Shown piece by piece: positions 16,495 to 47,970 of a stretch of DNA of 64,000 nucleotides. The translations under genes were made by a program, and so were the position numbers. The notes under the pieces were generated by a model. That model ran no database searches, was not told the origin of the DNA, and saw only the letters and a program-made list of their open reading frames with translations. The stretch is from assembly GCA_039028615.1 (NCBI GenBank), contig JBCCHT010000015.1:128001-192000 (forward strand). Direction: 5' to 3'. Positions within the stretch are counted from its first letter, which is position 1; every line of letters begins with the position of its first letter. This stretch comes from Myxococcota bacterium (GTDB lineage: Bacteria > Myxococcota_A > Polyangia > Nannocystales > Nannocystaceae).

Positions 16495-18231
16495 ATGGCA
16501 TCCGCACCACCCGTCACGGTGAGCTATCCCGGAGTCTATCTCCAGGAGGTCACGAATACCGCCGTCAATGTGACCCCGGCATCCACCTCGGACGCCGCAT
16601 TCATCGATTGGTTCCCGCAGGGGCCCACCGATGAGGCGGTGCAGATCACGAGCTTGCAGGAGTTCAACAGCACCTTCGGGGGCCTGAACTGGAACTCGCC
16701 GGCCAGCTACGCCATCCAGCAGTTCTTCCTCAACGGCGGGTCGGTGGCCTGGGTCGTCCGCATCGTGCCGAGTTCGACCACGACTCCCGCCGCCGGGCGA
16801 GCAGCCGTGGCGGCCAGCCTCTCGTTCGACTTCAGCCAGACCTCGCCTCCCGTCGTGACCAGCAGCCCCCCGGGTGCGCCCTCGGTCATCACGTTCTCCG
16901 CCAATAGCGAAGGCACGTGGGGCAACTCGTACGGGGTTCAGTTCACGCCCACGCCCGCCTCGATGGCGCCGGCCGGCGTTCAGGACCCGTTCAACCTCAC
17001 CATTCAGCAGAACGTGGGCACCACCGCCAAGCCGATCTGGGCGGTGGTCGAGAGCTACTACAACGTCACGCTCGACCCCACGAGCCCGAACTACATCGTG
17101 AATGTGGTCACCCAGGGGTCGAACTTCGTGGTCGCCACGGCGGCCACGGGCAGCGTGCGCAGCCAGGCCGCAAAGTTCAGCACCCCGAGCGCCCCCGTGA
17201 ACCCCGAGGCGCTGGAGAACGGCGACGATGGCCAGTGGGGCTCGAGCTCCGCGAACGCGGCGGCCGCCTACGCTGCCTCGGTCGAGGCGCAGGTCACCAC
17301 CGGTTCCGCGTTGCTCGACGGCATCGCGCCCAACCACTTCAACATCATGTGCTTGCCGGGGGTGAGCCTGCTGAGCACCAACTCGCAGGAGGCACCCCTG
17401 ACGGCGGCGTTGCAGTACTGCCAAGACAATCAGGCGTTCCTCATCGTCGATCCGTCGCCGCCCACCAACATCACCCAGACCATCGGCAACCCCAGCTTCT
17501 TCAGCACCAGCTCCTTCGTCGACGACGTGAGTCAGATGGTCGACTGGGCGGCTTCGTGGACCAACGCCGAGAACATCGCGGGGGCGACCTATTATCCCTG
17601 GCTGCTCGTTCCCGATCCGCTCAACCAGAACAACCCGCGCCTGGTGCCACCCAGCGGCACGATCGCGGGGATCTACGCGGCTACCGACGCCTCGCGGGGC
17701 GTGTGGAAGGCTCCGGCGGGGGTCGACGCGGTGCTCGGCGGCATCCTGGGGTTGGCCGATGCCACGCTGACCGACACCGACAGCGGCACGCTCAATACCC
17801 TGGGCATCAACGCCCTGCGCACGTTCCCGATCTACGGCAACGTGGTCTGGGGCACGCGAACCCTGGCGGGGGCCGATCTGCTGCAGAGCTCGTTCAAGTA
17901 CGTCGACGTGCGGCGGCTGACCGACTTCATCGAGCAGAGCCTCACCCAGAGCCTCAAGTGGGCGGTGTTCGAGCCCAACGCCGCGCCGCTGTGGGCCACC
18001 ATCACCTCGGAGGTCAGCGCGTTCATGGCCTCGCTGTACACCGACGGGGCGTTCGGAGGGTCGACGGCGGCCCAGGCCTATCAAGTGTTGTGCGACGCGA
18101 CCACGACGACGCCGACCGACATCGAAAACGGCATCGTCAACGTGGTGGTGGCGTTCCAGCCGGTACTCCCGGCCGAGTTCGTCGTCCTCCAGATCCAGAT
18201 CAACTCTCCCACCACCGCGACCTCGCCCTAG
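16495..18231 (+). CDS. Contractile tail sheath protein (Afp2/3/4-like)
   Basis: YPGVYLQE, FFLNGG, PPSGTIAGIYA-TD--RGVWKAPAG, LGINALR, VWGTRTL, YVDVRRL, WAVFEPN, PAEFVV. Confidence 0.95.
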   Translation: MASAPPVTVSYPGVYLQEVTNTAVNVTPASTSDAAFIDWFPQGPTDEAVQITSLQEFNSTFGGLNWNSPASYAIQQFFLNGGSVAWVVRIVPSSTTTPAAGRAAVAASLSFDFSQTSPPVVTSSPPGAPSVITFSANSEGTWGNSYGVQFTPTPASMAPAGVQDPFNLTIQQNVGTTAKPIWAVVESYYNVTLDPTSPNYIVNVVTQGSNFVVATAATGSVRSQAAKFSTPSAPVNPEALENGDDGQWGSSSANAAAAYAASVEAQVTTGSALLDGIAPNHFNIMCLPGVSLLSTNSQEAPLTAALQYCQDNQAFLIVDPSPPTNITQTIGNPSFFSTSSFVDDVSQMVDWAASWTNAENIAGATYYPWLLVPDPLNQNNPRLVPPSGTIAGIYAATDASRGVWKAPAGVDAVLGGILGLADATLTDTDSGTLNTLGINALRTFPIYGNVVWGTRTLAGADLLQSSFKYVDVRRLTDFIEQSLTQSLKWAVFEPNAAPLWATITSEVSAFMASLYTDGAFGGSTAAQAYQVLCDATTTTPTDIENGIVNVVVAFQPVLPAEFVVLQIQINSPTTATSP

Positions 18232-18243
18232 GAGTCACGACCC

Positions 18244-18777
18244 ATGGCAAGCACAACCATTTCCACCAGTCGCGTCGATCCGTTCCTGACCTACAACTTC
18301 CAGGTCAAGTGGGACAACAACTACGTCGCGGCGGTGAGCAAGGCCAGCGGCCTCAGCCGCACGACCGATGTCGTTCCGTTTCGCTCGGGCGGGCAGCCGC
18401 AGAGCATGTACAAGATCCCGGGGCAGACCGACTACGGCGCGCTGACCCTGGAGCAGGGGGTCACCTTCGACACTACGTTCGAGCAGTGGGCCAACAAGGT
18501 CTGGTACTACCCCAATACCTCGAAGTTCGGGCAGGAGGTCTCGCTCAAGGACTTCCGCAAGAACCTGCAGCTCGAGATGTACAACCAGGCCGGGCAGCTG
18601 GTCATGCGGTACAACATCTACAACTGCTGGCCGTCGGAGTACACGCCGCTGCCCGAGCTGAGCGCCGAGGCCAACGTGGTGGCGTTCGCCAGTCTCACGC
18701 TGCAAAACGAGGGCTGGTCACGCGACACGTCGGTCACGCCACCCACGCTGCCCAGCTTCAACGAGCCTTCGAACTGA
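18244..18777 (+). CDS. Tail tube protein (T4 gp19/Afp1-like)
   Basis: DPFLTYNFQV, SGL, KIPGQTDY-ALTLEQG, FRKN-QLE-YNQAG, NCWPSEY; AGGAG ribosome-binding site. Confidence 0.93.
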   Translation: MASTTISTSRVDPFLTYNFQVKWDNNYVAAVSKASGLSRTTDVVPFRSGGQPQSMYKIPGQTDYGALTLEQGVTFDTTFEQWANKVWYYPNTSKFGQEVSLKDFRKNLQLEMYNQAGQLVMRYNIYNCWPSEYTPLPELSAEANVVAFASLTLQNEGWSRDTSVTPPTLPSFNEPSN

Positions 18778-18787
18778 GCCTCGCGTC

Positions 18788-19531
18788 ATGACGGCGCTCG
18801 GTTCCGAACAGCTCCTGCAGACGTGGGAGCGAGCGCAGGCGCATGGACCCATCGAGCGGGCACTGGTGCTGTTGTCCCAGGCCCGCACGCACTGGGATCG
18901 CGATCGCTTGCGCCACGTGCCGCTGGGGCAGCGCGATCGATGCGTGCTGGAGCTGCGCGAGCAGCTGGTCGGCACGCGGGTCCAAGGGCATCTTCGCTGC
19001 CCGGCGTGCGGCGAGCTGCTCGAGTTCTCCGTCGATCTGGCCCAGCTGCTGTTCGCCGCGCTGCCGGAACACCCCTCGTCGCCTACGGTGGAGCTGGCGG
19101 TTCGAGACTACGAAGTGCAGGCGCGGGCTCCGAATAGCGAGGACATGGCGCTGGCCTCGTGTCGGCACGATGTCGAGGCGGCGCGGGGCTTGTTGCTGCG
19201 GCGATGTGTGCTCTCGGCTCGCCGCGAGGGCGTCGCGGTCGAGCCGAGCGAGCTGCCAGACGAGGTCGTGCACGAAATCGGAGAGGCGATCCTGCGCGAG
19301 GATCCGCAGGCCGAGGTCTATCTCGATTTGTCGTGTGCCCGCTGCGGGGCCGCGGTCCACAGCCTCTTCGACGCGCCCGCGTTCGTGTGGGGCGAGCTCG
19401 ACGAGATGGCCGAGACGCTCCTGGAGGAGGTCGAAGTCCTCGCCCGCGAGTACGGGTGGCGCGAGGTCGACATCTTGGCCATGACCCCCACTCGGCGGCG
19501 GCGCTACATGGAGCGGTGCCGCGATGGATGA
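18788..19531 (+). CDS. CxxC-containing tail/baseplate assembly chaperone
   Basis: Two CxxC motifs (CPAC, CARC); C-terminal LAREYGWREVDILAM---RRRRY; position directly after the tube gene. Confidence 0.75.
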   Translation: MTALGSEQLLQTWERAQAHGPIERALVLLSQARTHWDRDRLRHVPLGQRDRCVLELREQLVGTRVQGHLRCPACGELLEFSVDLAQLLFAALPEHPSSPTVELAVRDYEVQARAPNSEDMALASCRHDVEAARGLLLRRCVLSARREGVAVEPSELPDEVVHEIGEAILREDPQAEVYLDLSCARCGAAVHSLFDAPAFVWGELDEMAETLLEEVEVLAREYGWREVDILAMTPTRRRRYMERCRDG

Positions 19532-22019
19532 TCTGTTCGAGCGGTTGGCTCGACGGGCACTCGGCCTGACTTCCGGGGTCGTCAAGCCGGGGCGGGCGCT
19601 TCCCTTCTCGCAGGGCGCGGCCCCGCAGGAGGAGCTGGGGTCGTTGCTCGGCGGCGTGGCGGAGCGACGGCCGGGGCAGCGGCCCGTGTTGCCGGCGTTG
19701 CGGGATCGCCAGGTCGCGGACGCGGCGGAGCTAGGGCGGCCGGCAGACCCCGGGCGGGTGGACCTGCCGGGGCTCGAGGAACTCGGGCGGTCGCAGGGGA
19801 GTGATGGTGAGCGGTCGGAACGGCAGCCTCCCGCGGAAGAAACCGTCACGCCGAGTTCGGTCGAGGCGTCGGAGCCTGCGGAGACCTCGAAGCCCGCGGA
19901 GACCGAATCGAGGGCGGCGGAGCGAGGAGAGGGCAGGGCTCGGGAGGCCGAGGAGCGCCGGACCACGGAACGGAGGGCCGAGCGCGAGGAGCCGACCGCC
20001 GATCGGGGAGCCCGGGGGCGAACGGATGCCGAGGTCGAGCCGGTCGAGAGTGACGGGCGAGAGGGCTCGACGTCGAAGCGGGAACCTCGAGGTAAGGAGC
20101 CGAGTGCCGAATCGAGGGCGGCCGACGAGGGCGTTGGGCAGCGCCGGTTGTCGAAGTCGCGGCGGACGGCTCGGGAAACCTCGAGGGGACCCTCGGACGA
20201 GGGGGTAGGGCGATCGGCCGACCGCGTGCCCGCCGAGAAGGCGACCCGCGGCGAAGGAGCCGACGCGCTCGGGAGCGTCCGTGACACGGCGAGAACCGAA
20301 ACACGGGAGAACGTCGAAGCACCACGACGAGGGGCGCATTCTCCCGAAGCCGAACTGCCCGCGAAGGCGGGTGCTCGGGCGAAGGTCGAAGCACCGAAGG
20401 GGGTCGGTCGTCCCGCGAACGCCCGGCTGCCTGCGATGGGCAACGGTGTCGAGCGCGTTGGGGTACCTGCGGATATCAACGAGTCGCTCGACGCCATCGA
20501 GCGCATCGATGATGGGGAGCCGTTGACCGCCAGGGAGCCGGCGAAAAGGTCGGCCCCGGCGAAGGCCGCGGACTCGAGTTCACTCGATGCTCCCGTTGCA
20601 GTCGAGTTGGGCACGGGCGATCGGACGTCGACTTCAAACAACCCCACGTCTGGCGATTCACGCTCGCGGCCTGGCGCGGCTGAGGCGGCTCTGGGCCATG
20701 AGGCAGCGAGGGCCGAAGCCGTTCCTCCGGGAGTGCCGGACCACGCAGCGGAGCGACCCGCGGATAAATCCGAGGCGAGGCGGGGCGATGCTGCTTCGCC
20801 GTCGGCCTTGCGGGATCGACAGCGCGGGCGGGAGCAGGGCGCCGATACTGCGGCTCGAGAACCACTGCGGTCGGAATCGGCTCGAGCGGTCCTGCGCGAT
20901 CGGGTGAAGCCGGCCGAGCTGGAGTCGCCCCGGCGTTCCTTCGAGCGCGACGGGGCCAGGCCTTCGCCAGATCGAACCGCCAGCTCGGAGGTTGCGCCCG
21001 TCGTTGCTCCGACGGAGGCTCAGAGTGGACAGGCGACCGTCGAGCCTTCCGACCAGGCCTCCGCTACGCATCCCCGCGAGGCGCTGCCGGATGCGCGGCC
21101 GTCACCCCGGGCACGGCGTGCCGCGGATCGATCGACCATGAGCGAGTCGGCCGACGATCCTCGCACCCGGATGCCGGCCGGTACCCCGGAGTCCCGAGGA
21201 GAAGGGGCCGCTGCGCCGCGGCCCCGCGCCCAGGCCCCAGACCACGCTCGCCTCGAGAACGCCGAGCCGCCCGAGTCGCTCGAACAACGCCTCTCGACCC
21301 ACAGGGAGGGTCCTCGCCGAGAACAGAGCACACCTACGCTCCAGGCGCCCCGGCACGACTCGCCGTTGCCCGTCGATCCCGTGGTGCAACGCGTCGCTCG
21401 TCGGAACGGCGAGGCGGACGTCGGTGGCGAGGCCTTCGACCGGCCGCGCGCGACCGAGTCCAGTGCACCCTCGGCCGCCCGAGCGGGTCGTCGGTCTTCC
21501 GCGCTGCAACAACCGACCCGCGTTCCCGAACTCACCGATCGCAGCGAGCGAGCGAGCACTCCTGGGCCTACGGAGCGACTGCCCTCGATTGCGGTGGAGT
21601 CGACCGAACTCGCTGATGCCCCACGTCGCCCGCAGCCCCCCGAGCCCAGCCCGCGCGCGAAGACGAAACACCCGCCGACGGAGCCGCGCTCGCGGTGGGT
21701 CTCCGTGCCCGACGTGAGCGCCACGGTCCCCACCTCCCGCGCGTCCGAACCCACGACGACCGCGCCCCGACCTCGTGCCGTCGAGGAGCGAACCTCCGCC
21801 GTATCTCCGTCCCAACCAACCCTCGCCGCGGTACGAACCCAGACCCGTCGCGAGCGCTCCAATCCCTCGAAGCCCAAGGACGCCCCGGTCCAAGTCCACA
21901 TCGGGGTCATCGAGGTCGTCACGATGGACGGCGCCGCGACCCCCGGACTTCGCGCTCCCTCCCGCCAGGCCCCCGTGTCGCTCGCCGACTACCTCGCTCG
22001 TAGGAGGGGTCGCGGATGA
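19524..22019 (+). CDS. Long disordered protein, candidate tape measure
   Basis: R/E/P/A/S-rich low complexity; ordered ends (LFERLARRALG; VQVHIGVIEV...SLADYL); overlaps both neighbours. Confidence 0.65.
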   Translation: MDDLFERLARRALGLTSGVVKPGRALPFSQGAAPQEELGSLLGGVAERRPGQRPVLPALRDRQVADAAELGRPADPGRVDLPGLEELGRSQGSDGERSERQPPAEETVTPSSVEASEPAETSKPAETESRAAERGEGRAREAEERRTTERRAEREEPTADRGARGRTDAEVEPVESDGREGSTSKREPRGKEPSAESRAADEGVGQRRLSKSRRTARETSRGPSDEGVGRSADRVPAEKATRGEGADALGSVRDTARTETRENVEAPRRGAHSPEAELPAKAGARAKVEAPKGVGRPANARLPAMGNGVERVGVPADINESLDAIERIDDGEPLTAREPAKRSAPAKAADSSSLDAPVAVELGTGDRTSTSNNPTSGDSRSRPGAAEAALGHEAARAEAVPPGVPDHAAERPADKSEARRGDAASPSALRDRQRGREQGADTAAREPLRSESARAVLRDRVKPAELESPRRSFERDGARPSPDRTASSEVAPVVAPTEAQSGQATVEPSDQASATHPREALPDARPSPRARRAADRSTMSESADDPRTRMPAGTPESRGEGAAAPRPRAQAPDHARLENAEPPESLEQRLSTHREGPRREQSTPTLQAPRHDSPLPVDPVVQRVARRNGEADVGGEAFDRPRATESSAPSAARAGRRSSALQQPTRVPELTDRSERASTPGPTERLPSIAVESTELADAPRRPQPPEPSPRAKTKHPPTEPRSRWVSVPDVSATVPTSRASEPTTTAPRPRAVEERTSAVSPSQPTLAAVRTQTRRERSNPSKPKDAPVQVHIGVIEVVTMDGAATPGLRAPSRQAPVSLADYLARRRGRG

Positions 22020-23251
22020 GCAACTATCAGGCCGTCGCGGTGGTCACCGCCACCTTGCGCTACCTCCTGCACGAGGCGGTCAAGAACGCCCTGCCGGAGG
22101 CGCAGGTCACCCTCAAGCGTCCAGAGGAGGACGGAGGAGGAGCCGACCGCGATCGACCTCGGATCAACCTGTTTTTGTTCCAGACCCTGGACAGCCCCAC
22201 TGCGCGCAACTCCGACCTGCCCACGCGAAACCCGGGCGGTGGCTTGACCCGTCGCCCTCGCGTCGCCCTGAATCTCAACTACCTGCTGACCTTCTTCGGG
22301 GACGCGGAGAACAGCCACCTGTTGCTCGGGCTGGCCACCACCGCGCTACACCAGCATGCGTTCCTGACTCCGCAGGACATCCAGGATGCGACGAGCAGCA
22401 AGCCGTCGCTCCAAGGCTCGGGGCTCGATCAGCAACAGCCACCGGTTCGGGTGGCGCCGCTGACCTTCTCCTTCGACGAGTTCTCGAAGTTCTGGTCGGG
22501 CTTCTTTCAGATCCCGTACTCACTCTCCGTGGCGTACCAGGCCTCGGTGGTGCTGATGGACAGCCCCATCGAGCCCGTCGCCACCTTGCCCGTACGCCAG
22601 GTGGGCTCGCGTGGAGTCCCACGGCCCACGCCCCGGCTGGGACCTCTGGCTCCGGTCTCGTTTCCCGCCAGTGGTGCACCGCCGACGATCGACGTCGAGG
22701 GCGATGGGCTGGTTCGCGGCGACATGCTCGAGGTCGGTGGCACGCTGCTCACCATCGGCGCGGGGCCGAGCGGTGGGTTGTCGGTCACGCTCCCTGCAAC
22801 GCTCTCACCCGGCCCGCACCCGGTTCGCGTGGGCATCACCGTGTCGCTGGGTAACCCACCCACGCCGCATACGGTGCTCTCGTCCACCGAGCGAGAGCTG
22901 AAGGTCCGTCCCACCATCGCGACCATCAGTTTCAACGCGGCCACGCCTGCGGTCGTGTTTCCTCCCTCGCCGGGGGCTCCGGCCACGATCACGGTGCAGG
23001 TGGTGCCGCCATTGCGTGCGGGGCAAGTGGCGACGCTCTCGCTGTTTCCCACGGCGACCTCGCCTGGAGCCGGAGCGAAGTCGCTGGTCCTCGACGGCGC
23101 GACACAGGAAACCCCTGGCGTGCTCTCCATCGCCGTGCCCGCCAACGTGACCGGGACCTTCTTCGCCCGGCTCGGTGTCGACGGGGTGGACTCCGAGCTC
23201 GGGGTCGACAGCAGCGGCCGCTTCACGGGACCGGAGGTCACGATCCCATGA
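22016..23251 (+). CDS. Pvc16/DUF4255 tail terminator (cap) protein with Ig-like C-terminal extension
   Basis: MSNYQAVAVVTATLR, RINLFLFQ, LNLNYLLTFFG, KFWS-F---YSLSVAYQASVVL. Confidence 0.88.
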   Translation: MSNYQAVAVVTATLRYLLHEAVKNALPEAQVTLKRPEEDGGGADRDRPRINLFLFQTLDSPTARNSDLPTRNPGGGLTRRPRVALNLNYLLTFFGDAENSHLLLGLATTALHQHAFLTPQDIQDATSSKPSLQGSGLDQQQPPVRVAPLTFSFDEFSKFWSGFFQIPYSLSVAYQASVVLMDSPIEPVATLPVRQVGSRGVPRPTPRLGPLAPVSFPASGAPPTIDVEGDGLVRGDMLEVGGTLLTIGAGPSGGLSVTLPATLSPGPHPVRVGITVSLGNPPTPHTVLSSTERELKVRPTIATISFNAATPAVVFPPSPGAPATITVQVVPPLRAGQVATLSLFPTATSPGAGAKSLVLDGATQETPGVLSIAVPANVTGTFFARLGVDGVDSELGVDSSGRFTGPEVTIP

Positions 23252-25275: not shown

Positions 25276-25550
25276 GCGCGCCCTACCAGCTCCGCATCGA
25301 TCGCCTGCGCGTGCCCGGGCTCGAGCCGCATGAGCACGACGCGATGCATCGCGCGCTCGAGCGAGAGCTGGGGCGTCTGAGCACTCGACACGGTCTCCCG
25401 CGGCGGGTCGCCCAGGGGCCGGCATGGACGCCCGGAGGCGTGGTGGAGGTCCCCTCCGGGGCGAGCCCGTCCGAAATCGGCGTCCACATGGCGCGCTTCA
25501 TCCACTCCAGCCTCGGCGGCTTCATCCCTCACGAAGAGCAGCGCCCATGA
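25272..25550 (+). CDS. Small eCIS-associated protein
   Basis: ATGA overlaps on both sides; LRIDRLRVPG...ALERELGRL pattern. Confidence 0.65.
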   Translation: MSAPYQLRIDRLRVPGLEPHEHDAMHRALERELGRLSTRHGLPRRVAQGPAWTPGGVVEVPSGASPSEIGVHMARFIHSSLGGFIPHEEQRP

Positions 25551-26218: not shown

Positions 26219-26225
26219 GAGTCTC

Positions 26226-26540
26226 ATGGCCAACGGTCCCAACTTCTTCGGCAAGAGCAGCGCGTACGCCAACGCCAAGACCCACGTCTACGTGACGCCG
26301 GACGGGCGCCGCATCGAGTACGTGCAGCCGCGGGTCCTGCCGCAGCCCGACTCGGTGCCGCTCCAGGGCTTCACGCGGGTGCAGGACTCCACCGCGCAGC
26401 GCCTCGACTTGGTGTCGTTCCAGACCCTCGGCAACGCGCTGCTCGCCTGGCGGGTCGCCGATGCGAACGGCGCGATGGACCCCTTCGACCTCGTGACTCG
26501 CGTCGGTCGCACGCTTCGGGTCCCCGATCCCACTGCTTGA
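26226..26540 (+). CDS. LysM/gp53-like baseplate protein
   Basis: RLDLVSFQTLGNALLAWRVADAN...GRTLRVP; AGGAG ribosome-binding site. Confidence 0.85.
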   Translation: MANGPNFFGKSSAYANAKTHVYVTPDGRRIEYVQPRVLPQPDSVPLQGFTRVQDSTAQRLDLVSFQTLGNALLAWRVADANGAMDPFDLVTRVGRTLRVPDPTA

Positions 26541-26549
26541 GCGCTCGTC

Positions 26550-27719: not shown

Positions 27720-27740
27720 CCGCGCGGAGGGAGTTTGAAC

Positions 27741-28700: not shown

Positions 28701-28715
28701 GGGGACGACGCGGGC

Positions 28716-29069: not shown

Positions 29070-29073
29070 GACC

Positions 29074-38767: not shown

Positions 38768-38790
38768 CCACGAGACCCGAAGAACGCATC

Positions 38791-41700: not shown

Positions 41701-43008
41701 CGTCGGTCGTGGGGCAAGGACCAGGAGACCGATACCCACCAGATCTACGACGTCGCTCGCAAGACCTGGGTCGAAGGGGAGCCGCTGCCGCTGCGGGTCG
41801 CCGCGATGGCGGTGGCGGTGCACCACGGGCATCTACAGGTGGTCGGTGGTCGCAACCGTCGCGGCTGGCTCGCTCGCGCGAACGCCTACGACCCGGCCTT
41901 TGCCACCTGGAGCGCCGCCCCACGCTTGGCGATCGCGGTCGAGTTCCCGCACGGGGCGGCGGTTCGCTCGCAGCCGTGGGTGCTCGGTCGGGCGGGCGCA
42001 GAGTCGTCGAGCGTGGTGCGGCAGCGGCTCGCGGCGCGTCCCGTGCTCTACGTGTTTGCCCGGGATGAACCCGATGCGGTCGGTCGTGGGGATGCTGCGA
42101 GTCGATTGCCGCCGCCGGTCAGTCGAGGCATGCGCCCCGCCGGGTCCGACCGTGCCCCCGAGGGCCATCGGCGCAAGCCTCGAGCGCGGAGGGCCCTCGA
42201 GATCGCGACGGCGGGCACCCTCACCCTCGGAGGTGGCGGTGGGACGGCGTGGTGGCTGCTGCCGAACGGCGAATCCTCGGGCACGGGCACGGAGGCTGGC
42301 GCCGAAGGAGGCAGCGCTGCGCTCGAGCCAGTGGCGTCCATCGGGCGTCGCCAGGTCCATCGCGTGACCTCGTTCGGCTTCGTGTTGTTCGAGTCGGGTC
42401 TGACGGTCGCGGCCAACGGAGCCCCGGAAGCGTTCCACCCCGACGGGGCGCCGGGCCTGGATGCCCTCACCGACGCGGGGCGCCCCGGCGACTGGTGGGC
42501 CCTGGTGACGGAAGGGGGAGGCTCGCGCGGCACGCCCATCGTGCAGGGCGAAGAGGACCCGGCGCCCGGCTTCTACATCTCGAGTACCGCACTGGTCGAT
42601 GCCGAGCGGCGCCAGGACGACCCGCGGCGCTACGTCGATGCCTCGCAGATCCCGTACGTGGCGCTCCCCGGAGGGCACGACTTGTTCGGAGCGCAGCTGG
42701 GCGACGTCGCCACGGTGCTGCACCTCGACAGCGGCATGGTGGCCCACGCCATCGTGGCGGACGAAGGCCCGCCCGACCTGCTCGGCACGGGGTCGATCGC
42801 GTTGGCGAATTCCTTAGAGCTCGACGCCGACCCGCGCGACGGCGGAGCCTCGTCCGGGGTGGTGTACCTGGTCTATCCGGGCACGGGAGACGGCAAGCCC
42901 CGGTCGGCGGAGGAGATCGACGAAATCGGTGCCCGTGAACTCGAGCGCCTGGGAGGCCGTGCCGAGCTCGAGCGCCTGGCCGAGCTTCATCGAGGGTCGA
43001 CGCCATGA
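38791..43008 (+). CDS. DUF6519 tail-fibre-type protein with LamG, Kelch and GH75-like domains
   Basis: GDFSR...MQQGRVQLDSDWN, GRYYVDG, NYLYRVEVH, FKWSR-NGS; LamG FTLEAWV/HVAAVYDG/RIWSRARS; Kelch IFVIGG/IYAVGG; C-terminal DPAPGFYISSTAL...YVDASQIPYVALP. Start could be 38818. Confidence 0.85.
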   Translation: MKHGLKYGTMYGDFSRLPEGLFEPFTNVWMQQGRVQLDSDWNAQAALTRQRAAIGLTDIIGRTGAPAVSPGFGVRPMFGVELGLHGYLEVHDAAPFAFEGTQPFTLEAWVDLSPLDGGGTVLTCASPMADGGYSLFIRDTLVRFGRWELDERGEASWQLLEARRPLTPGRFMHVAAVYDGRVSRVYVGGKLAGEGAAGPGASGASQLFLGGVPEDSGVPGESLDGAMAGVRIWSRARSRAEIARDVARDRRGLADERAEHLIAHWPLDQGHGERAQNDVGARYATLRDGASWRLFDLAIEPGRYYVDGAIAELHRGERYTQQHAYPGARLPTHPGLYAIVLELWERSINPIEDPTLREIALGGPTTTTRSALVPAVRLISLPRAQADLLKLDHDETARRIESAVDSLTRSTARMSARLRPSGPVGNYLYRVEVHDPGVLGESLPSELIELEVVRVAAEVSELHLGDVDLEIVDFTIDEYVELTSGSGELRVHARVLHWHGERGALGIEIDVETLQILEADGPTTLRRSRGPTFKWSRTNGSTVEAIEPIEGDGKTLVVTGWTDGRMPISAGDWLEIVDDRYTLRNEPAHLVQVARVSSQQRRIELVEPAPSGVGRNGSLHPFVRRWDQHATEATQLRGGAVVIDRNQWIALEHGLSVSFEAGTYRRGDYWWVTARADSQSIEWPTRDDEPLSQPPLGVARSRAVLGLFAQGKGAAVVRDLRRVFATLPFHGGVPHGDTDGDGIEDEAIPLEPEVIPETRTEEPEPSPSFAEGGEIILRTVDEPPLNYHRTGDRIELEGPTPHWDHDALEGMGADCEGVTEVGGVAFVLSAEAIFRVADNGALAQGARMPALRRAFGLTACRGRIFVIGGVDDRGRRVDTVFAYDPSADQWETRAPLPRERSHLGATDVDGKIYAVGGIESFLWLFERASDRLDIYDPEHDRWSEGPTAPHRRSELGVATLGSQVHAVGGSRRSWGKDQETDTHQIYDVARKTWVEGEPLPLRVAAMAVAVHHGHLQVVGGRNRRGWLARANAYDPAFATWSAAPRLAIAVEFPHGAAVRSQPWVLGRAGAESSSVVRQRLAARPVLYVFARDEPDAVGRGDAASRLPPPVSRGMRPAGSDRAPEGHRRKPRARRALEIATAGTLTLGGGGGTAWWLLPNGESSGTGTEAGAEGGSAALEPVASIGRRQVHRVTSFGFVLFESGLTVAANGAPEAFHPDGAPGLDALTDAGRPGDWWALVTEGGGSRGTPIVQGEEDPAPGFYISSTALVDAERRQDDPRRYVDASQIPYVALPGGHDLFGAQLGDVATVLHLDSGMVAHAIVADEGPPDLLGTGSIALANSLELDADPRDGGASSGVVYLVYPGTGDGKPRSAEEIDEIGARELERLGGRAELERLAELHRGSTP

Positions 43009-45293
43009 CCGAGGCGGTGGTCCAGAGCACGCCGCTGGTCTCCACGTCGGGCGAGGCGCTGCCGCTGGTCTCGTGCATCATGCCGACCAAGGACCGTCGC
43101 CCCTACGTCGCGGGCGCGATCGAGTACTTCTTGCGGCAGGACTACCCGAACCGTGAGCTCATCATCCTCGACAGCGGCGAGGATGCGGTGGCGGACCTGG
43201 TGCCCGAGCACCCGATGATTCACTACGTCCGCTGCGAGGTCGGCTTGTGCCTCGGCAGCAAGCGCAACTTGGCGTGCGAGCGGGCCCGCGGGGAGCTCAT
43301 TTCGCACTGGGACGACGACGACTGGAGCGCGCCCTGGCGGCTGCGGGTGCAGGTGCAGCAGCTGCTCGCCGACGATGCGGACATGTGTGGGCTGGCGAGC
43401 ATGCTCTACTACGACGCCCAGACCAAGGCGGCGTGGCGCTACGAGTATCCGAAGGGCGACCGGCCGTGGGTCGGCGGCTGTACCATGCTCTACCGCCGCG
43501 ATCTGTGGCTCTCGCAGCGCTTCGAGGACCTGCACAGCGGCGAGGACAACCGCTTCGTGTGGCGAGACCCCGCGCCGCGTATCGCGATACCCGAGGACGG
43601 GTCCTTCCATGTCGCGCTGGTACACGGCGGCAACGCGAGCCCGAAGCACACCAATACCGTGCGCTGGCGACCGATTCCGATCGAGCGCATCGAAGAGGTC
43701 ATGGGTTCGGATTTTCGCCACCACGGCCGAGCGCGACCGAGCCGCCCCGCGGTCTCGGCCTCCTCATCGGCCGCTACCCCTGCGCCGCGCCCGGCGGCCT
43801 CGGGCTTTCGCAATCTGTACGCGTGCCTCGTGCACGAGCGGCCGGACTGCGTCGCCGACCTCGTTCGAAACCTTCGCTATCTCGACCCGCAGGCGCACGT
43901 CCTGCTCTACGACGGAAGCCCCCGCAGCAGCCTGCTGCGAGGCGGGCACCTCGAGGGGCTCGGCGCGATGGTTCACCCCACGCCGCGCCCCATGAAGTGG
44001 GGCTACCTCCACGACTTCGCCCTCGACTGCATGCGCTACGGCCTGCAGGCGATGAGCTTCGATGCGCTGACCATCGTCGACTCGGACCAGCTGGCCATCC
44101 GCTCCGGGTTCACCCCGCGACTCGGCGAGTACCTGGCGGAGCACGAAGACGCCGGCATCCTCACCTGCGCTCCGCACCCGCAGCGGGCGGCCACCGCCGC
44201 CGACCCGGCCAAGACGGCGCTGCGCGAGAACAACCTGTGGCAGTCGTTCTTCGAGCGCTATCCGGGGCCCGAGCAGGAGCGCTGGTACTGGACCTTCTGG
44301 CCCACGACGGTCTTCACCGCCAAGGCGGCGCGGGACCTGCTGGCGATCTTCGAGGACGAGCAGCTGCGCTCGATCCTGGGGCGCTCGCGGCTATGGGCGA
44401 CCGAGGAGGTCTTGTTTCCCACCCTGACCGCGCTGCTCGGCCACGACGTACTCGCCAACCCCGGTAGCTACGACTACGTGAAGTATCGAGCGCGCTACTC
44501 CGTGGCCGACCTCGATGCGGCGATGGGCTCCGATGATTGTTTCTGGGTGCACCCGGTGCCGCGGGACTACGACGATCCGCTGCGCCGTTACATTCGCGAA
44601 CGTCACGGGGACTACGTCCGGCCCGCGTCCGAAGACGAGGCGTCGGTCGAGTCGAGGCCGGCCGACGAACGCCGGGAGGGTCCCCCCGTCTTGCGGACGC
44701 TGCCCATCGTGCGAGCCATTCGCCCGCTGAAGGGGTGGCTCGACGATGATGAGGCCGATCTGCTGGTGGCCACGACGCGCGAGGCGCTGGCGCTGCCGGG
44801 CGCACCCAACGTGGTGGAGGTGGGGAGCTTCTGTGGTCGCGCCACGGTGGCCATGGGGATGGTCGCGCGCACCGTCGATGCCGCCCACGTGTTCGCCGTC
44901 GATGCCTTCGATGGGGTGGTCGGGGCGGCGGGCGATCGCCTGGAGCACTTCGGCCCCACGCTCGAGCGCTTCACCGCCAATGTCGATCGGGCTGGCCTGC
45001 AGCGCTGGGTCACCGCCGTACCCACCGAGGGACAGCGCCCCGAGTGGAGCGCGTCGCTGGCCATGCTCGTCGTGGACGGACTACACGACTACGCGAACGT
45101 CTCCGCCGATCTCGAGCACTTCGAGCGGTGGCTTCGTCCCGGGGGCTACCTGGTGTTCCACGATTACGCGCCCTACTTCCCCGGAGTGACGACCCTGGTG
45201 GACGAGGTGCTCGCTCGCGGCGACTACGGGTGGGTGGCGCAGGCGTCCACGCTGGTCGTGTTGCGCAAGCGCGAGCCGAAGGAGGACGACTGA
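43005..45293 (+). CDS. GT2 glycosyltransferase + second GT-like domain + class I SAM methyltransferase fusion
   Basis: PLVSCIMPT-DR, QDYPN-ELII-D, HWDDDDW; central IVDSDQL; C-terminal VVEVGSFCGR, VVDGLHDY, LRPGGYLVFHDY. Confidence 0.85.
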   Translation: MTEAVVQSTPLVSTSGEALPLVSCIMPTKDRRPYVAGAIEYFLRQDYPNRELIILDSGEDAVADLVPEHPMIHYVRCEVGLCLGSKRNLACERARGELISHWDDDDWSAPWRLRVQVQQLLADDADMCGLASMLYYDAQTKAAWRYEYPKGDRPWVGGCTMLYRRDLWLSQRFEDLHSGEDNRFVWRDPAPRIAIPEDGSFHVALVHGGNASPKHTNTVRWRPIPIERIEEVMGSDFRHHGRARPSRPAVSASSSAATPAPRPAASGFRNLYACLVHERPDCVADLVRNLRYLDPQAHVLLYDGSPRSSLLRGGHLEGLGAMVHPTPRPMKWGYLHDFALDCMRYGLQAMSFDALTIVDSDQLAIRSGFTPRLGEYLAEHEDAGILTCAPHPQRAATAADPAKTALRENNLWQSFFERYPGPEQERWYWTFWPTTVFTAKAARDLLAIFEDEQLRSILGRSRLWATEEVLFPTLTALLGHDVLANPGSYDYVKYRARYSVADLDAAMGSDDCFWVHPVPRDYDDPLRRYIRERHGDYVRPASEDEASVESRPADERREGPPVLRTLPIVRAIRPLKGWLDDDEADLLVATTREALALPGAPNVVEVGSFCGRATVAMGMVARTVDAAHVFAVDAFDGVVGAAGDRLEHFGPTLERFTANVDRAGLQRWVTAVPTEGQRPEWSASLAMLVVDGLHDYANVSADLEHFERWLRPGGYLVFHDYAPYFPGVTTLVDEVLARGDYGWVAQASTLVVLRKREPKEDD

Positions 45294-46084
45294 TGCGTTG
45301 GTCTCGGCACGCCGCCGCGATCACCGTGATCGTGGTCGCGATGTCGGCCGCGGGGTGTCGCGATCGGCAAGACGATTCGGGACGCGGCGCCGCGGCGGGG
45401 GATGCCACCGACGATTCCTCTTCGTTCGAGCTCCTCCCCGGCACCATCACTCCGCTGAAGCCTGGAGCGCGCGGTGTCGATCGCCTGGGCGCAATCAATG
45501 CCCGACGCGCCCGGGCCCTGCGTGCCGACGGGATCGACTTCGCGGTCCGCTATGTCCGCCACGCGTCGTCCAACGCCTCGCTGACGACCCGCAAGGAAGC
45601 AGAGGGCATCTTGGGGGCGGGCCTGACCCTGATGCTCGTGCAGGAAGGTCGAGGGTTTCGCCAAACCCGGCCCTCGGCGGAGCTGGGCGAGCGCGATGCT
45701 CGAGCGGCGGTCGCCCATGCCGAGCACCTCGGCTATCCACGCCAGGGAACGCTGTGGCTGGACATGGAGGCCATCACCGCGCCCGGTACGACCGCGGACG
45801 ACGTCATGAACTACGCGCGTCGATGGCATGAGGTCGTTGATGAGCACTACTCGCCGGGCTACTACGTGGGCCCGGTGGGCAAGCTCGACGGTGACCAGCT
45901 GGGGTCGCTGCCCTTCGAGCACTTTTGGAAATCCGCGGCTCGGGTGCCGACACCCACCGGGCGCGGCTACCAGCTCCTCCAGGGGCATCATCGCGAGATC
46001 GCGGGCGTGGTGGTGGACCCGGATACCGCCCAGGACGACGATCAGGGCGGCCGCGCGCTCGGACTCTCGCCTCCATCTCGATGA
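45293..46084 (+). CDS. DUF1906 (Rv2525c-like, GH25-related) glycoside hydrolase lipoprotein
   Basis: TGATG coupling; lipobox AAGC; GVD, GIDFAVRY, GLTLMLVQE, G-RDA--AV--A--LG-P, LWLDME. Confidence 0.75.
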   Translation: MRWSRHAAAITVIVVAMSAAGCRDRQDDSGRGAAAGDATDDSSSFELLPGTITPLKPGARGVDRLGAINARRARALRADGIDFAVRYVRHASSNASLTTRKEAEGILGAGLTLMLVQEGRGFRQTRPSAELGERDARAAVAHAEHLGYPRQGTLWLDMEAITAPGTTADDVMNYARRWHEVVDEHYSPGYYVGPVGKLDGDQLGSLPFEHFWKSAARVPTPTGRGYQLLQGHHREIAGVVVDPDTAQDDDQGGRALGLSPPSR

Positions 46085-46165
46085 GCGGCACCTCGGAGCC
46101 CACGCCTAAATCACCCAGAATCCGCTCGTAATCCGCTATCCTGACCCCAGGAGACGACGCCCTCG

Positions 46166-47509
46166 ATGCCCCATCAACGAGTTGCCGCGCGAGCGAAAGC
46201 TGCTGGAGATCCGCAGCCCGTACGCCCGGTGCAGCGCGTCGATGCTCCCGCGATGGAGGGATCACCCGGGATGTTCGGCATGAGCCTGAGCACCATGAAG
46301 GTCGGCCGCTCGCGCTCCACGAACCTGCCCGATCGCTTGCGCGCGGGCATCGAGTCGCTGAGCGGCATGTCGATGGGCGGAGTACAGGTCCACTACGACT
46401 CGCCGCGGCCGGCTCAGGTCGACGCCTTGGCCTACACACAGGGCCGGGACATCCACCTCGCGCCGGGGCAAGAAGAACACCTCGCCCACGAAGCGTGGCA
46501 CGTCGTGCAGCAGGCGCGGGGGCGCGTGCGGAGCACGGGGACGCTCGACAACGGGGCTCGCGTCAACGAAGACCACGCCCTCGAACGCGAAGCCGACGTG
46601 ATGGGGAAGCGAGCGCAGGGGCACTCGGGGTCCAGCCCCGCGCTCCCGACCGGTGAGAGCCCCGTCTCGTCGCCTCTTGCGCCCGGAACCGCCCAGGGGG
46701 GCTTCGCTCCCGTGCAGCGAAAACCCAAGAGCCTGCGGGCTCGTATTCGGGAGAAGCAGAAGAACAACACGCCGCTGACCGCACGCGAACAGAGGTTTTT
46801 GGATCAGCAGCAGCGAGCCCAGGCTCAGCCGACGCGGACCTTCTTCCACATCACGGGGAGCCCTGGCTTCGCCAATACCCTCGCGGCCGGTCGTCAGCGG
46901 CCAACGCCGCTCACCCATGCGCAGCTTCAAGCCAACCACGGCGTGAGCATCGATCCTCGGTTCACGCAGCGCAGCCGGACGGCCACGAATCCGATCGGGG
47001 ACAGCCTCAGACCAGGAGACGACCTCGGCCCTGGCTTCTATACGACCGACAGCGCGGCCTTCGTCGACCACTACCTGAACGCGAATTTCAGCGGCGGGGG
47101 CAACGAGCACGATGCTCGGATCCTGTCGTTCCAAGTTCCTGCCAATTCGTTTCGGCACTTGGACGTCCAGGACAACCGGCTCGACGACGAGGACACCTTC
47201 CAGCGAAACATGCGGGATGGCTTCGCGACTCAGGACGTTGCGACTCGACAAATCTCATTGCCGCGGCTCGATGCAGGAGTCGGCCACGATATCGTCAGCG
47301 GTCCGATCAATGACGTCGCGACACCGCCGACACGCCCCACCAGCGACGGCACGACGAGATTCAGCCAGGGGACCATCCTCAGGCTGGCCAACGAGACGCC
47401 GCGCCAGCAGAACTTCGCCAGTCGGGCCGCCGTGGACGCGCTGTACGACAACTCCCAGATGAGCGTGTTCAACCTCGAGCAGTGGCGAAAGCACCGCGCA
47501 GCGCGCTGA
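46166..47509 (+). CDS. DUF4157 (eCIS core) protein with C-terminal DUF3990/ART-like domain, candidate effector
   Basis: LPD-LR-GIESLSG, V-VHYDS--PAQV-ALAYTQG-DIH, HLAHEAWHVVQQ, LEREAD-MG, PVQR; then FFHIT, DLGPGFYTT, HDIVSGP. Confidence 0.82.
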   Translation: MPHQRVAARAKAAGDPQPVRPVQRVDAPAMEGSPGMFGMSLSTMKVGRSRSTNLPDRLRAGIESLSGMSMGGVQVHYDSPRPAQVDALAYTQGRDIHLAPGQEEHLAHEAWHVVQQARGRVRSTGTLDNGARVNEDHALEREADVMGKRAQGHSGSSPALPTGESPVSSPLAPGTAQGGFAPVQRKPKSLRARIREKQKNNTPLTAREQRFLDQQQRAQAQPTRTFFHITGSPGFANTLAAGRQRPTPLTHAQLQANHGVSIDPRFTQRSRTATNPIGDSLRPGDDLGPGFYTTDSAAFVDHYLNANFSGGGNEHDARILSFQVPANSFRHLDVQDNRLDDEDTFQRNMRDGFATQDVATRQISLPRLDAGVGHDIVSGPINDVATPPTRPTSDGTTRFSQGTILRLANETPRQQNFASRAAVDALYDNSQMSVFNLEQWRKHRAAR

Positions 47510-47511
47510 CC

Positions 47512-47970
47512 ATGGCGACGATCATTACTGCGGTCCGAGCGTGCCTCGAACAGGATGGGCTCCGCTACGAGCTCGATGAGCAGGGACAGGCGTTGCGCTT
47601 CGGGTTTCGCACCGAGGCGCATCGTTGGACGTGCATCGCGCAGAGCGACGAACAGCGACGACGCCTCGCCTTCTTCAGCATCGTGCTCGCGCCAGTCGAA
47701 CGAGAGCGACGCGGGGCGGTGATGGAGCTGCTGTCGCGCATCAACTGGGGGTTGTTCCTCGGGAGTTTCGATATCGAGCTCGACACCGGTCGGGTTCGCC
47801 TGCGGACCTCGGTCGACTTCGGGGAGGAGCCGCCAACGACCGGCCTGGTGCAGCCGCTCATCCACGCCAACCTGGCCACCATGTCGACGAACATGACGGC
47901 GATTGATCGGGTGATGGGGGGCCAAGCCTCGCCCGCGGAGGCGTTGCGAGAGCGCGACGGCCCGCCGTAG
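47512..47970 (+). CDS. YbjN-like (secretion chaperone fold) protein, candidate immunity protein or chaperone
   Basis: ERRGAVMELLSRINWGLFLGSFDIE-DTG-VR-RTS; starts 2 nt after the effector stop. Confidence 0.78.
   Translation: MATIITAVRACLEQDGLRYELDEQGQALRFGFRTEAHRWTCIAQSDEQRRRLAFFSIVLAPVERERRGAVMELLSRINWGLFLGSFDIELDTGRVRLRTSVDFGEEPPTTGLVQPLIHANLATMSTNMTAIDRVMGGQASPAEALRERDGPP

What the first reader, a model, noticed from the sequence alone, without database searches (positions are those of the whole stretch)
16495..47970. eCIS carrying a coupled glycan toolkit: a candidate injection system aimed at cell-walled prey such as fungi
Seen: a complete co-oriented contractile-tail operon that continues by ATGA/TGATG coupling from the DUF6519 gene into a GT2/GT-like/methyltransferase gene and a DUF1906 hydrolase, followed by a DUF4157 effector and YbjN. 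The structural proteins themselves carry glycan-associated folds (LamG, GH75-like, Asp-box propellers). Known: eCIS such as Afp, PVC and MAC are released particles that deliver cargo, and many myxobacteria are predators. Inference: this combination may be an undescribed eCIS variant that recognises chitosan- or glucan-type walls. I cannot confirm novelty without a search.
Basis: partly seen in the sequence, partly recalled or inferred. Interest (0 to 1): 0.88.

Follow-up and report, generated by a model that had tools for sequence, protein, structure and literature searches.

The report
Injection system with own glycosylation enzyme
This marine myxobacterium-like genome encodes a known type of phage-tail injection system whose operon also carries a three-part sugar-adding enzyme found next to such systems in many bacteria, which suggests that these particles can be sugar-coated like some viruses, while the claimed fungal target is not supported.

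Summary
The operon is real: a DUF6519 (eBAP5)-fibre eCIS, lacking only a PAAR gene, with the ATGA/TGATG junctions as described. The fungal reading is weak. The fibre's GH75-like tip resembles the viral chitosanase V-Csn (E 4e-33), but three of four active-site acids are gone, including both catalytic ones, while the scaffold is kept: a likely binder, not a chitosanase. Its relatives pair mostly with peptidoglycan modules, two related fibres end in GH25 lysozyme instead, and the genome has no GH18 or GH46 hit. LamG-Kelch fibres are common. The stronger finding is the coupled gene: GT2 + GT14-like (no Pfam hit) + sugar O-methyltransferase. It is a single-copy family in eight phyla, lying within 40 kb of a CIS sheath in 43 of 50 genomes tested, yet optional (2 of 29 related loci). 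It mirrors chlorovirus A064R, which glycosylates capsid protein. Most likely it decorates the particle or its cargo; the acceptor is unshown, and my searches found it only in supplementary tables. The effector has a DUF3990/ADP-ribosyltransferase-like fold. Rival: a membrane-anchored system, as related fibres carry a transmembrane helix before the hydrolase. New variant of a known kind.

The parts
16495..18231 (+). contractile sheath, 578 aa, Ser/Thr-rich (20.2%)
   Evidence: Pfam Phage_sheath_1/1C; closest solved chain 8BKY E 2e-53; S+T in top 0.7% of 3390 long ORFs of the genome
18244..18777 (+). inner tube (gp19-like), 177 aa
   Evidence: PF06841 E 1e-38; TIGR02241
18788..19531 (+). T4_baseplate-like protein, 247 aa
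   Evidence: PF12322 E 2e-8
19524..22019 (+). 831-aa low-complexity protein, tape-measure-like by position (inference)
   Evidence: no family hit; sequence
22016..23251 (+). Pvc16-type terminator
   Evidence: PF14065 E 4e-41
23248..25275 (+). Afp15/Pvc15-type AAA ATPase
   Evidence: AAA + WHD; same position in related locus G028:C453
25547..26218 (+). CIS_tube protein (alternative start 25424)
   Evidence: PF19266 E 6e-9
26226..26540 (+). small 104-aa gene in the LysM slot (label by position)
   Evidence: no family hit; 38% identical positional homologue in G028:C453
26550..27719 (+). VgrG-like hub, 389 aa
   Evidence: NF033848 VgrG_rel E 2e-7, under cut-off; positional homologues
27741..28700 (+). 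spike: OB domain plus long beta-repeat tail, 319 aa; no PAAR gene follows
   Evidence: PF04717 E 7e-19; homologues are 162-170 aa; PAAR 0 in genome
28716..29069 (+). gp25 wedge
   Evidence: PF04965 E 2e-16
29074..31515 (+). baseplate J-like 1, 813 aa
   Evidence: TIGR02243 over cut-off; 9GTP chain E 6e-10
31512..36629 (+). baseplate J-like 2, 1705 aa, with inserted Asp-box/Reg_prop propeller regions (relatives 850-920 aa)
   Evidence: TIGR02243 under cut-off, NF045728; three Asp boxes; Atlas look-alikes Vps10/BNR/Reg_prop at score 0.78, leads only; lengths
36626..38767 (+). fibre adaptor, Tail_P2_I-like by position, 713 aa
   Evidence: no Pfam hit; homologues followed by a DUF6519-type N-terminus
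38791..43008 (+). DUF6519 (eBAP5) tail fibre, 1405 aa: DUF6519 with inserted LamG, Kelch propeller, linker with weak hydrophobic segment, GH75-like tip
39046..39519 (+). LamG domain (fibre residues 86-243)
   Evidence: PF13385 E 5e-21
41344..41850 (+). Kelch propeller (about residues 852-1020)
   Evidence: PF01344 E 6e-30
42193..42261 (+). basic residues then Gly-rich hydrophobic segment (residues 1135-1157), weak transmembrane candidate
   Evidence: best 19-residue Kyte-Doolittle mean 0.76, against 2.55, 2.32 and 1.56 at the same place in P0272, P0314, P0326
42376..42990 (+). GH75-like domain with A1207, N1209, D1324, T1333 at the four acid positions: predicted non-catalytic
43005..45293 (+). 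three-domain transferase, 762 aa: GT2, GT14-like (43800-44624), sugar O-methyltransferase; no signal peptide seen
45293..46084 (+). DUF1906 / Rv2525c-like hydrolase with lipoprotein-type signal, 263 aa
   Evidence: PF08924 E 3e-18; sequence; homologues
46166..47509 (+). DUF4157 effector, 447 aa, C-terminal DUF3990/ADP-ribosyltransferase-like domain
   Evidence: PF13699 E 9e-12; Atlas features 0.91 and structure rows DUF3990, under the bar for naming a family
47512..47970 (+). YbjN-like protein, 152 aa; immunity or chaperone by position only
   Evidence: PF10722 E 2e-10; 2-bp gap

Best explanation
A DUF6519/eBAP5-type extracellular contractile injection system with three accessories. (1) A cytoplasmic GT2 + GT14-like + O-methyltransferase enzyme that builds and methyl-caps a short glycan on the system's own proteins (particle or cargo) during assembly, in the way chlorovirus A064R finishes the capsid glycan. 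Shown: the folds, conserved motifs and the link to eCIS loci. Inferred: activity and acceptor. (2) A fibre whose tip is a dead GH75 fold, kept as a binder of an amino-sugar wall polymer, more likely bacterial peptidoglycan (perhaps N-deacetylated) than fungal chitosan. Shown: targeted loss of the acids. Inferred: binding and ligand. (3) A tube-loaded DUF4157 effector with an ADP-ribosyltransferase-like fold and a YbjN partner, plus an exported DUF1906 lipoprotein acting on peptidoglycan. My odds by step: eCIS 0.97; transferase is an eCIS accessory 0.9; it glycosylates particle or cargo 0.5; tip is non-catalytic 0.9; bacterial rather than fungal target 0.6.
For: Core genes and order. Transferase family: 119 non-self full or multi-domain relatives listed at 41-52% identity; 287 relatives in GTDB, best 80 fetched; 62 of 80 have a hit to a window eCIS-operon protein within 10 kb; 23 of 80 lie within three genes after a DUF6519 fibre, 23 near an Afp15-type AAA, 12 near sheath or tube, 22 other; in 50 genomes with long contigs it is single-copy and 43 have a sheath within 40 kb on the same contig, against about 2% by my arithmetic; 37 of 80 carry further GT/MT genes. 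Domain 2 model pLDDT 93.7; top matches are both GT14 (2GAK Z 18.9, rmsd 3.5, 249 aligned; 6EJ8 protein xylosyltransferase Z 18.8), and giant-virus Core-2/I-branching proteins in BFVD; domain 3 is closest to MeT1 and SpnH (Z 24.1, 21.2). A064R is GT-GT-MT and acts on the capsid glycan (PMC9614988, passages). Unrelated transferases fill the same post-fibre slot in L180, L194 and L215. GH75 tip: 122 of 149 relatives keep all four acids; the fibre departs at 6 of 51 conserved columns, three of them the acids (P 0.004); partners in 50 longer relatives: 9 peptidoglycan-type, 5 LysM, 1 GH18; related fibres P0272 and P0326 end in GH25 with intact motifs.
Against: No acceptor shown. Sheaths beside the transferase are not richer in Ser+Thr than unlinked sheaths of the same genome (higher in 5 of 14). 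The gene is optional: 2 of 29 related adaptor loci with at least 6 kb downstream, none in 400 sampled genomes of the phylum other than G000. Two family members sit beside Tc-toxin-family genes, one in a genome with no sheath match. No sugar-nucleotide synthesis genes in the operon. D36, which also binds the amine in V-Csn, is lost, so the tip may bind nothing. DUF1906 relatives are mostly not beside eCIS core genes. No PAAR gene.
Confidence: 0.5

Rival explanations
1. Membrane-anchored system. The fibre crosses the producer's inner membrane after the Kelch domain, so that the GH75-like domain lies in the periplasm and grips the producer's own peptidoglycan, and the DUF1906 lipoprotein opens the wall locally. 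The system then fires from the cell, as tCIS is held by its fibre helix.
For: Three of 38 Kelch-type fibre relatives have linker + basic residues + hydrophobic helix at the same place (P0272 KD 2.55, P0314 2.32, P0326 1.56), two followed by GH25 and one also by TonB_C, a periplasmic domain. The best GH75 relative P0122 has a hydrophobic segment before its GH75 domains. DUF1906 is an exported lipoprotein. Precedent: Anabaena Cis13 helix anchors tCIS (PMC8894136, passages).
Against: The window's segment is weak (KD 0.76, five Gly in a row). 34 or more of the 38 relatives end after Kelch. A DUF4157 cargo and an Afp15-type ATPase fit a released particle equally well. No trans-envelope genes in the locus.
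Confidence: 0.2
2. One reading: a released eCIS aimed at fungi or other walled eukaryotes, with the dead GH75 tip, LamG and Asp-box propellers binding chitosan or glucan.
For: V-Csn, the closest solved relative, is a tested chitosanase and D148, which binds the amine, is kept. A dead enzyme suits a binder. Streptomyces CIS mutants are invaded more by fungi (PMC8505568, abstract), and the closest solved sheath is the 8BKY entry. A GH16 gene lies 10 kb upstream on the other strand.
Against: Peptidoglycan-type partners outnumber chitinase partners 9 to 1; GH25 in the same slot of related fibres; no GH18 or GH46 in the genome with controls ringing; LamG-Kelch fibres recur, including in Microcystis; propeller look-alikes are Vps10/Reg_prop types with no glycan specificity.
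Confidence: 0.15
3. The transferase does not modify the particle. It changes the producer's own surface or a small molecule, for example masking the receptor so that the particles do not bind kin, or it is itself cargo.
For: Often follows the effector-immunity block or the fibre; no Ser/Thr enrichment in linked sheaths; extra GT32, GT2, FkbM and TylF genes look like a small pathway.
Against: No signal peptide or membrane helix, and no flippase or polymerase among the recurring neighbour clusters scanned (clusters in under 3 loci mostly not scanned). It is conserved at 36-55% identity across eight phyla regardless of fibre type, whereas a receptor mask should track the fibre. It starts almost directly with GT2, with no DUF4157 or long disordered leader, unlike AlgoCIS cargo (bioRxiv 10.64898/2026.05.27.728243, passages).
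Confidence: 0.25
4. The tip is a recent, one-off fusion of a downstream membrane-anchored hydrolase gene that is decaying and has no role.
For: The fusion was found only in this genome; no orthologue in five same-genus genomes.
Against: Decay would not pick out the acids: the other three departures from conserved columns are conservative (P 0.004). Four LysM fusions show the same loss of D34 and E157 with D148 kept.
Confidence: 0.12

Closest known systems
eBAP5 (DUF6519) tail-fibre eCIS of Nachmias et al. 2026 (PMC12923769; read: first three of eight text parts, five supplements searched)
   Same: DUF6519 fibre with an inserted domain, downstream of baseplate-J genes and an adaptor; glycan-type C-terminal domains; one DUF6519+Kelch fibre is in their table.
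   Different: No GH75, Laminin_G_3 or GT2 hit in the supplements searched (one PDF not readable); no coupled transferase discussed in the parts read.
Streptomyces CIS/SLP (PDB 8BKY, 9GTP; assignment of these entries to S. coelicolor is recalled)
   Same: Closest solved sheath (E 2e-53) and baseplate J (E 6e-10).
   Different: This locus has a large fibre, a DUF4157 cargo, a transferase and a lipoprotein hydrolase; host is Gram-negative-type.
Chlorovirus PBCV-1 A064R (PMC9614988, passages)
   Same: One cytoplasmic protein with two glycosyltransferase domains and a sugar O-methyltransferase, encoded with a self-assembling particle.
   Different: Different GT families (here GT2 and GT14-like; the PBCV-1 domain 2P6W scores only Z 12.5 against domain 2); bacterial, eCIS-linked; acceptor untested.
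Mycobacteriophage virion glycosylation (Freeman et al. 2023; original not held, known through PMC11256854 passages)
   Same: Phage-encoded glycosyltransferases put glycans on virion proteins.
   Different: No match for domain 2 in 50,697 phage records; IMG/VR hits are mostly to the methyltransferase domain alone.
GH75 chitosanase V-Csn (PDB 7TVL; PMC9485262, passages)
   Same: Sequence match E 4e-33 over 172 residues; D148 equivalent kept.
   Different: D34, D36 and E157 equivalents lost; fused to a tail fibre.
Anabaena tCIS (PMC8894136, passages)
   Same: Precedent for a CIS held in a membrane by a fibre C-terminal helix.
   Different: Here the helix is weak and followed by a wall-polymer domain; different fibre family.
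eCIStem accessory cluster 633 (Geller et al. 2021, PMC8213781; passages and supplement rows)
   Same: Lists the same GT2 + Methyltransf_24 proteins in Pedobacter and Arcticibacter eCIS loci; the gene table also has Caulobacter and Algoriphagus rows.
   Different: Scored as a one-phylum cluster, middle domain unannotated, not discussed in the text passages found.

Membership tests
eCIS (Afp/PVC/MAC-like) | sheath, tube, gp25, baseplate J, spike/hub, Pvc16 terminator, AAA ATPase in one operon | tested here: met
eCIS (Afp/PVC/MAC-like) | DUF4157 and CIS_tube marker domains | tested here: met
eCIS (Afp/PVC/MAC-like) | PAAR spike tip | tested here: not met
   PF05488 0 matches in G000 (96.7% complete), control 3 of 14; spike is longer than in relatives
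eCIS (Afp/PVC/MAC-like) | no capsid, terminase or integrase beside the tail genes | tested here: met
   none among the 28 flanking ORFs scanned against Pfam; smaller ORFs not scanned
eCIS (Afp/PVC/MAC-like) | released as free particles | not testable with these tools
   needs microscopy
eBAP5 fibre | N-terminal DUF6519 with an inserted domain | tested here: met
   PF20129 E 2e-32 in three stretches with LamG between
eBAP5 fibre | Tail_P2_I adaptor gene directly upstream | tested here: inconclusive
   no Pfam hit; conserved gene in that position
GH75 chitosanase | homology to GH75 fold | tested here: met
   V-Csn E 4e-33; PF07335 E 0.002, under cut-off
GH75 chitosanase | four acids D34, D36, D148, E157 | tested here: not met
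   A, N, D, T
GT14 (Core-2/I-branching, xylosyltransferase) | GT-A fold closest to GT14 structures | tested here: met
   2GAK Z 18.9, 6EJ8 Z 18.8; next family 15.9
GT14 (Core-2/I-branching, xylosyltransferase) | sequence match to a GT14 profile | tested here: inconclusive
   no such Pfam hit for 81 members at E 0.1; 13% identity to 2GAK; CAZy not available
GT14 (Core-2/I-branching, xylosyltransferase) | catalytic Glu at the start of the late helix | tested here: inconclusive
   invariant E467/E468; equivalence to the GT14 base is recalled, not aligned residue by residue
A064R-type particle glycosylation enzyme | GT-GT-methyltransferase in one soluble chain | tested here: met
A064R-type particle glycosylation enzyme | glycosylates a structural protein of the particle | not testable with these tools
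   indirect Ser/Thr test was negative
membrane-anchored CIS (tCIS-like) | transmembrane helix in the fibre | tested here: inconclusive
   KD 0.76 here, 1.6-2.6 in three relatives; no topology predictor available
DUF3990 / ADP-ribosyltransferase-like toxin | fold match of the effector C-terminus | tested here: inconclusive
   Atlas features 0.91 to a cluster with DUF3990 in 33% of members; structure TM 0.45-0.53 by query; no Pfam or PDB sequence hit

The most novel reading that the evidence does not exclude
A lineage-crossing subset of contractile injection systems are glycosylated machines: a dedicated, unclassified GT2-GT14-like-O-methyltransferase family, found beside eCIS in eight phyla, primes, extends and methyl-caps glycans on the particle, as giant viruses do on their capsids. 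In this locus the fibre also ends in a dead GH75 wall-binding module, one of a set of fibres that carry peptidoglycan enzymes beyond a membrane helix.
Probability: 0.45. Interest if true: 0.82.

Novelty: new variant of a known kind. Interest (0 to 1): 0.62.

Why it matters
My searches found no report of a glycosylated CIS particle (open-licence library only). If the transferase decorates the particle, glycosylation becomes a new layer of eCIS biology (stability, protease resistance, target or immune recognition) and matters for eCIS delivery tools made in hosts that lack the enzyme. It also gives a bacterial GT14-like family with no Pfam model a testable role, in cultured strains such as Pedobacter, Mucilaginibacter, Caulobacter and Myxococcus. 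The dead GH75 tip and the GH25-tipped relatives give a direct handle on the open question of what eBAP5 fibres bind and whether some are membrane-anchored.

Tried and rejected
1. Fungal target as the main reading: rejected. The GH19 search was blank but its control was silent too, so it says nothing; likewise PF07335 on the own genome. 2. Ser/Thr enrichment of transferase-linked sheaths: negative, 5 of 14 genomes. The peak Ser/Thr/Pro count per 20 residues was higher in linked sheaths in most pairs, but this was seen after the fact and is confounded with subtype and taxon, so it is not used. 3. Other DUF6519-GH75 fusions: only self among 7998 scored candidates of 772-2459 aa; none among 119 fibre relatives; none of the 50 GH75 relatives scanned has DUF6519. 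4. Effector-YbjN co-folding: no answer, score 0.00, no alignments. 5. Effector C-terminus: no relative in 72 order genomes, plasmids or PDB sequences. 6. Domain 2 in phages: none; plasmids: one weak partial hit. GH75 tip in phage records: none. DUF1906 in viral contigs: none. 7. No RNA holder listed. 8. First metagenome scan with the single adaptor protein found nothing; the alignment did. 9. Fibre orthologues: none in 400 class genomes beyond one partial hit (only 4 candidates scored per genome). 10. No sigma-70 promoter and no plus-strand terminator pattern in 42900-48400. 11. Freeman et al. 2023 is not held. 12. Earlier scan notes: nothing on this locus or gene. Supplements not seen (three files of Geller 2021 not searched and two cut; one PDF of Nachmias 2026; bioRxiv supplements closed) could hold further mention of the transferase or of GH75 fibres.

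Full report
1. Observation. The window is G000:C15:128001-192000 of a 12.3-Mb, 68% G+C genome with 65 MYXO-CTERM matches against 0 in 14 control genomes, so a myxobacterium-like host is reasonable. The only run that holds the DNA is labelled marine metagenome and may be its source. Nineteen plus-strand genes run from 16495 to 47970. Pfam and NCBIfam identify sheath, tube, T4_baseplate, Pvc16_N, AAA, CIS_tube, hub, OB spike, gp25, two baseplate-J proteins, DUF6519, GT2 + Methyltransf_24, DUF1906, DUF4157 and YbjN. The core order matches a locus in another family, G028:C453. The ATGA and TGATG junctions are present, but four other junctions share the -4 overlap. No PAAR gene was found in the genome. 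Contigs of run X1 match 38700-48000 without a difference, which argues against an assembly error but is not independent.

2. The fibre. The 1405-aa gene at 38791-43008 has DUF6519 with an inserted LamG, a Kelch propeller and a C-terminal extension. DUF6519 is the eBAP5 anchor of Nachmias et al. 2026, found in 658 genes, often with lectin-like ends (PMC12923769, text parts 1-3 of 8). Of the best 119 non-self relatives listed (826 hits), 38 share the Kelch region, most with LamG by Pfam, one named from Microcystis; none has GH75. LamG plus Kelch is thus a recurring subtype and says little about prey. The extension ends in a domain matching the viral chitosanase V-Csn (E 4e-33). V-Csn has four family-wide acids; E157 and D36 are the proposed acid and base, D36 and D148 bind the amine, and E157Q nearly abolishes activity (PMC9485262, passages). 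The fibre has A1207, N1209, D1324, T1333. Among the best 149 relatives (1807 hits), 122 keep all four. The fibre departs from consensus at 6 of 51 conserved columns: three are the acids and three are conservative swaps; the chance of at least three of six falling on the four acids is 0.004. This looks like a kept fold with catalysis switched off. I scanned 50 of the longer relatives, picked by length: partners were GH25 (2), PG_binding_1 (5, two with CHAP), SH3_3 (1), Peptidase_M15 (1), LysM (5), GH18 (1) and PAAR (1). Four of the five LysM fusions also lost D34 and E157. Two related fibres, P0272 and P0326, end in GH25 lysozyme with intact-looking motifs (motif knowledge recalled). The genome has no GH18 or GH46 match, with controls ringing. 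Peptidoglycan is therefore at least as likely a ligand as chitosan.

3. A possible membrane anchor. P0272, P0314 and P0326 have basic residues and a hydrophobic helix after Kelch (19-residue Kyte-Doolittle means 2.55, 2.32, 1.56), and P0326 also ends in TonB_C. The window's segment at the same place scores only 0.76. Either the fibre is a weak anchor with a periplasmic tip, as tCIS is held by the Cis13 helix (PMC8894136, passages), or a membrane hydrolase was fused on and lost both helix and catalysis to become a soluble tip. I favour the second.

4. The transferase. The 762-aa gene is single-copy in G000 and belongs to a conserved family: the 119 non-self proteins listed are 41-52% identical. 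A scan of GTDB gave 287 relatives; the best 80 come from record titles that I assign to eight phyla. 62 of 80 have a tblastn hit to a window operon protein within 10 kb (a few of these are AAA, DUF4157 or YbjN alone). 23 lie within three genes after a DUF6519 fibre, 23 near an Afp15-type AAA, 12 near sheath or tube, and 22 show none of these clusters, many on short contigs. For 50 of the 80 (contigs of about 60 kb or more; two Pedobacter loci left out to fit the limit) each genome has one copy and 43 have a sheath within 40 kb on the same contig. Of the other seven, three have baseplate J 18-32 kb away, one has an AAA gene two genes upstream near a contig end, and three show no link. By my arithmetic (80 kb x 1.8 sheath hits / about 6.4 Mb) chance is near 2%. 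Kin are not independent, but linked cases occur in all eight phyla and at three different positions in the operon. The reverse link is loose: of 80 metagenome loci found with the adaptor alignment, 29 have at least 6 kb downstream and 2 carry this family; two more have an unrelated glycosyltransferase as the first gene after the fibre (some of the 29 are near duplicates). It was not found in 400 sampled genomes of the phylum other than G000. It is an optional accessory that is rarely found away from eCIS.

5. What the enzyme is. The model (pLDDT 88.5) has three domains. Domain 1 is GT2 with a DDD motif. Domain 3 is closest to MeT1 (6G7D, Z 24.1) and the rhamnosyl O-methyltransferase SpnH (Z 21.2) (that MeT1 methylates a mannoside is recalled). 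Domain 2 has no Pfam hit in 81 members; folded alone (pLDDT 93.7) it matches the GT14 enzymes C2GnT-L (Z 18.9, rmsd 3.5, 249 aligned) and xylosyltransferase 1 (Z 18.8), ahead of GT31-type enzymes (15.9), and giant-virus Core-2/I-branching proteins. Invariant residues include D359-S-D361 and E467-E468. There is no signal peptide. The same GT-GT-methyltransferase layout in chlorovirus A064R adds two sugars and a methyl cap to the capsid glycan (PMC9614988, passages), and some mycobacteriophages glycosylate their capsids (PMC11256854, passages; the original was not held). 37 of 80 loci add more GT or methyltransferase genes. The acceptor is not shown. This sheath is unusually Ser/Thr-rich (20.2%, top 0.7% of 3390 long ORFs), but linked sheaths were richer than unlinked ones in only 5 of 14 genomes.

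6. The tail of the operon. DUF1906 has a lipoprotein-type signal and a Rv2525c-like domain (peptidoglycan hydrolase role recalled). Relatives occur in 16 of 72 order genomes; none of 19 fetched loci shows an eCIS core gene within 1.5 kb, and one sits in a DUF4157 island; it is absent from the 80 transferase loci. It is a local addition. The DUF4157 protein has a short leader, the core domain, and a C-terminus whose look-alikes are DUF3990/ADP-ribosyltransferase-type clusters (lead strength). YbjN follows after 2 bp; an immunity role is inferred from position only.

7. Against what is known. Searches for DUF6519 gave two versions of one paper. Searches combining eCIS with glycosyltransferase, glycosylation, glycan or methyltransferase gave no paper on particle glycosylation in the listings. 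Term searches in Geller 2021, Danov 2024, a 2023 review and a 2026 preprint found none. The family does appear in Geller's supplements as accessory cluster 633 and in the gene table, without comment. GH75 was not found in the Nachmias supplements searched. One earlier scan note (e1-1529830) suggests a chaperone plus tape-measure-like pair in such loci; I did not test it.

8. Verdict. The system is a member of a known eCIS class. The fungal-prey idea drops to about 0.15. What is new is the eCIS-linked three-domain glycosylation enzyme, with about even odds that it decorates the particle or cargo, and a fibre tip made from a silenced GH75 fold. New variant of a known kind; interest 0.62.

Noticed in passing
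G000:C9:200000-239999 (L246, L247): A second eCIS of another subtype in the same genome: two sheaths, two tubes, AAA, and a 1698-aa DUF4157 protein with an Ntox1 domain; no transferase of this family.
   Followed up: partly
P0272, P0314, P0326: DUF6519-Kelch fibres with a hydrophobic helix after the propeller; two end in intact-looking GH25 lysozyme, one also in TonB_C.
   Followed up: partly
L177, L238, L242, L094: RimK-like ATP-grasp genes among the first genes after the DUF6519 fibre (3 of 29 loci; L094): another possible protein-modifying enzyme in the same slot.
   Followed up: no
L180, L194, L215: Unrelated glycosyltransferases as the first gene after the fibre: Glyco_trans_1_2 proteins (L180 also with Methyltransf_24) and a protein with three GT2 stretches.
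   Followed up: no
L070, L052: Members of the transferase family beside Tc-toxin-family genes rather than an eCIS; the L052 genome has no sheath match.
   Followed up: no
L064, L067, L076, L078, L080, L082: In Pedobacter-type loci the transferase follows a NusG-family gene and leads the eCIS operon, followed by two GT32-like genes.
   Followed up: no
G002:C86 (L316:463-4879): Same-genus island DUF4157, small gene, DUF1906 lipoprotein, DUF1906, DUF4157 with no hit to the window's eCIS core proteins on the 53-kb contig.
   Followed up: partly
P0176, P0198, P0221, P0265: LysM-GH75 fusions that have also lost D34 and E157 but keep D148: a possible class of non-catalytic GH75 binders. P0208 is a PAAR-GH75 fusion.
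   Followed up: partly
window 27741-28700: Spike about twice the length of relatives, with a long beta-repeat tail, in a genome with no PAAR match.
   Followed up: no
window 3843-9263: FecR-like, ECF sigma and GH16 genes (minus strand) facing a di-haem oxidoreductase gene, about 10 kb upstream of the operon.
   Followed up: no
window 15860-16494: AT-rich non-coding stretch before the sheath gene, the likely control region.
   Followed up: no
G000:C2:187074, C23:59746, C27:34337: Two further DUF4157 genes away from either eCIS and a second YbjN gene.
   Followed up: partly
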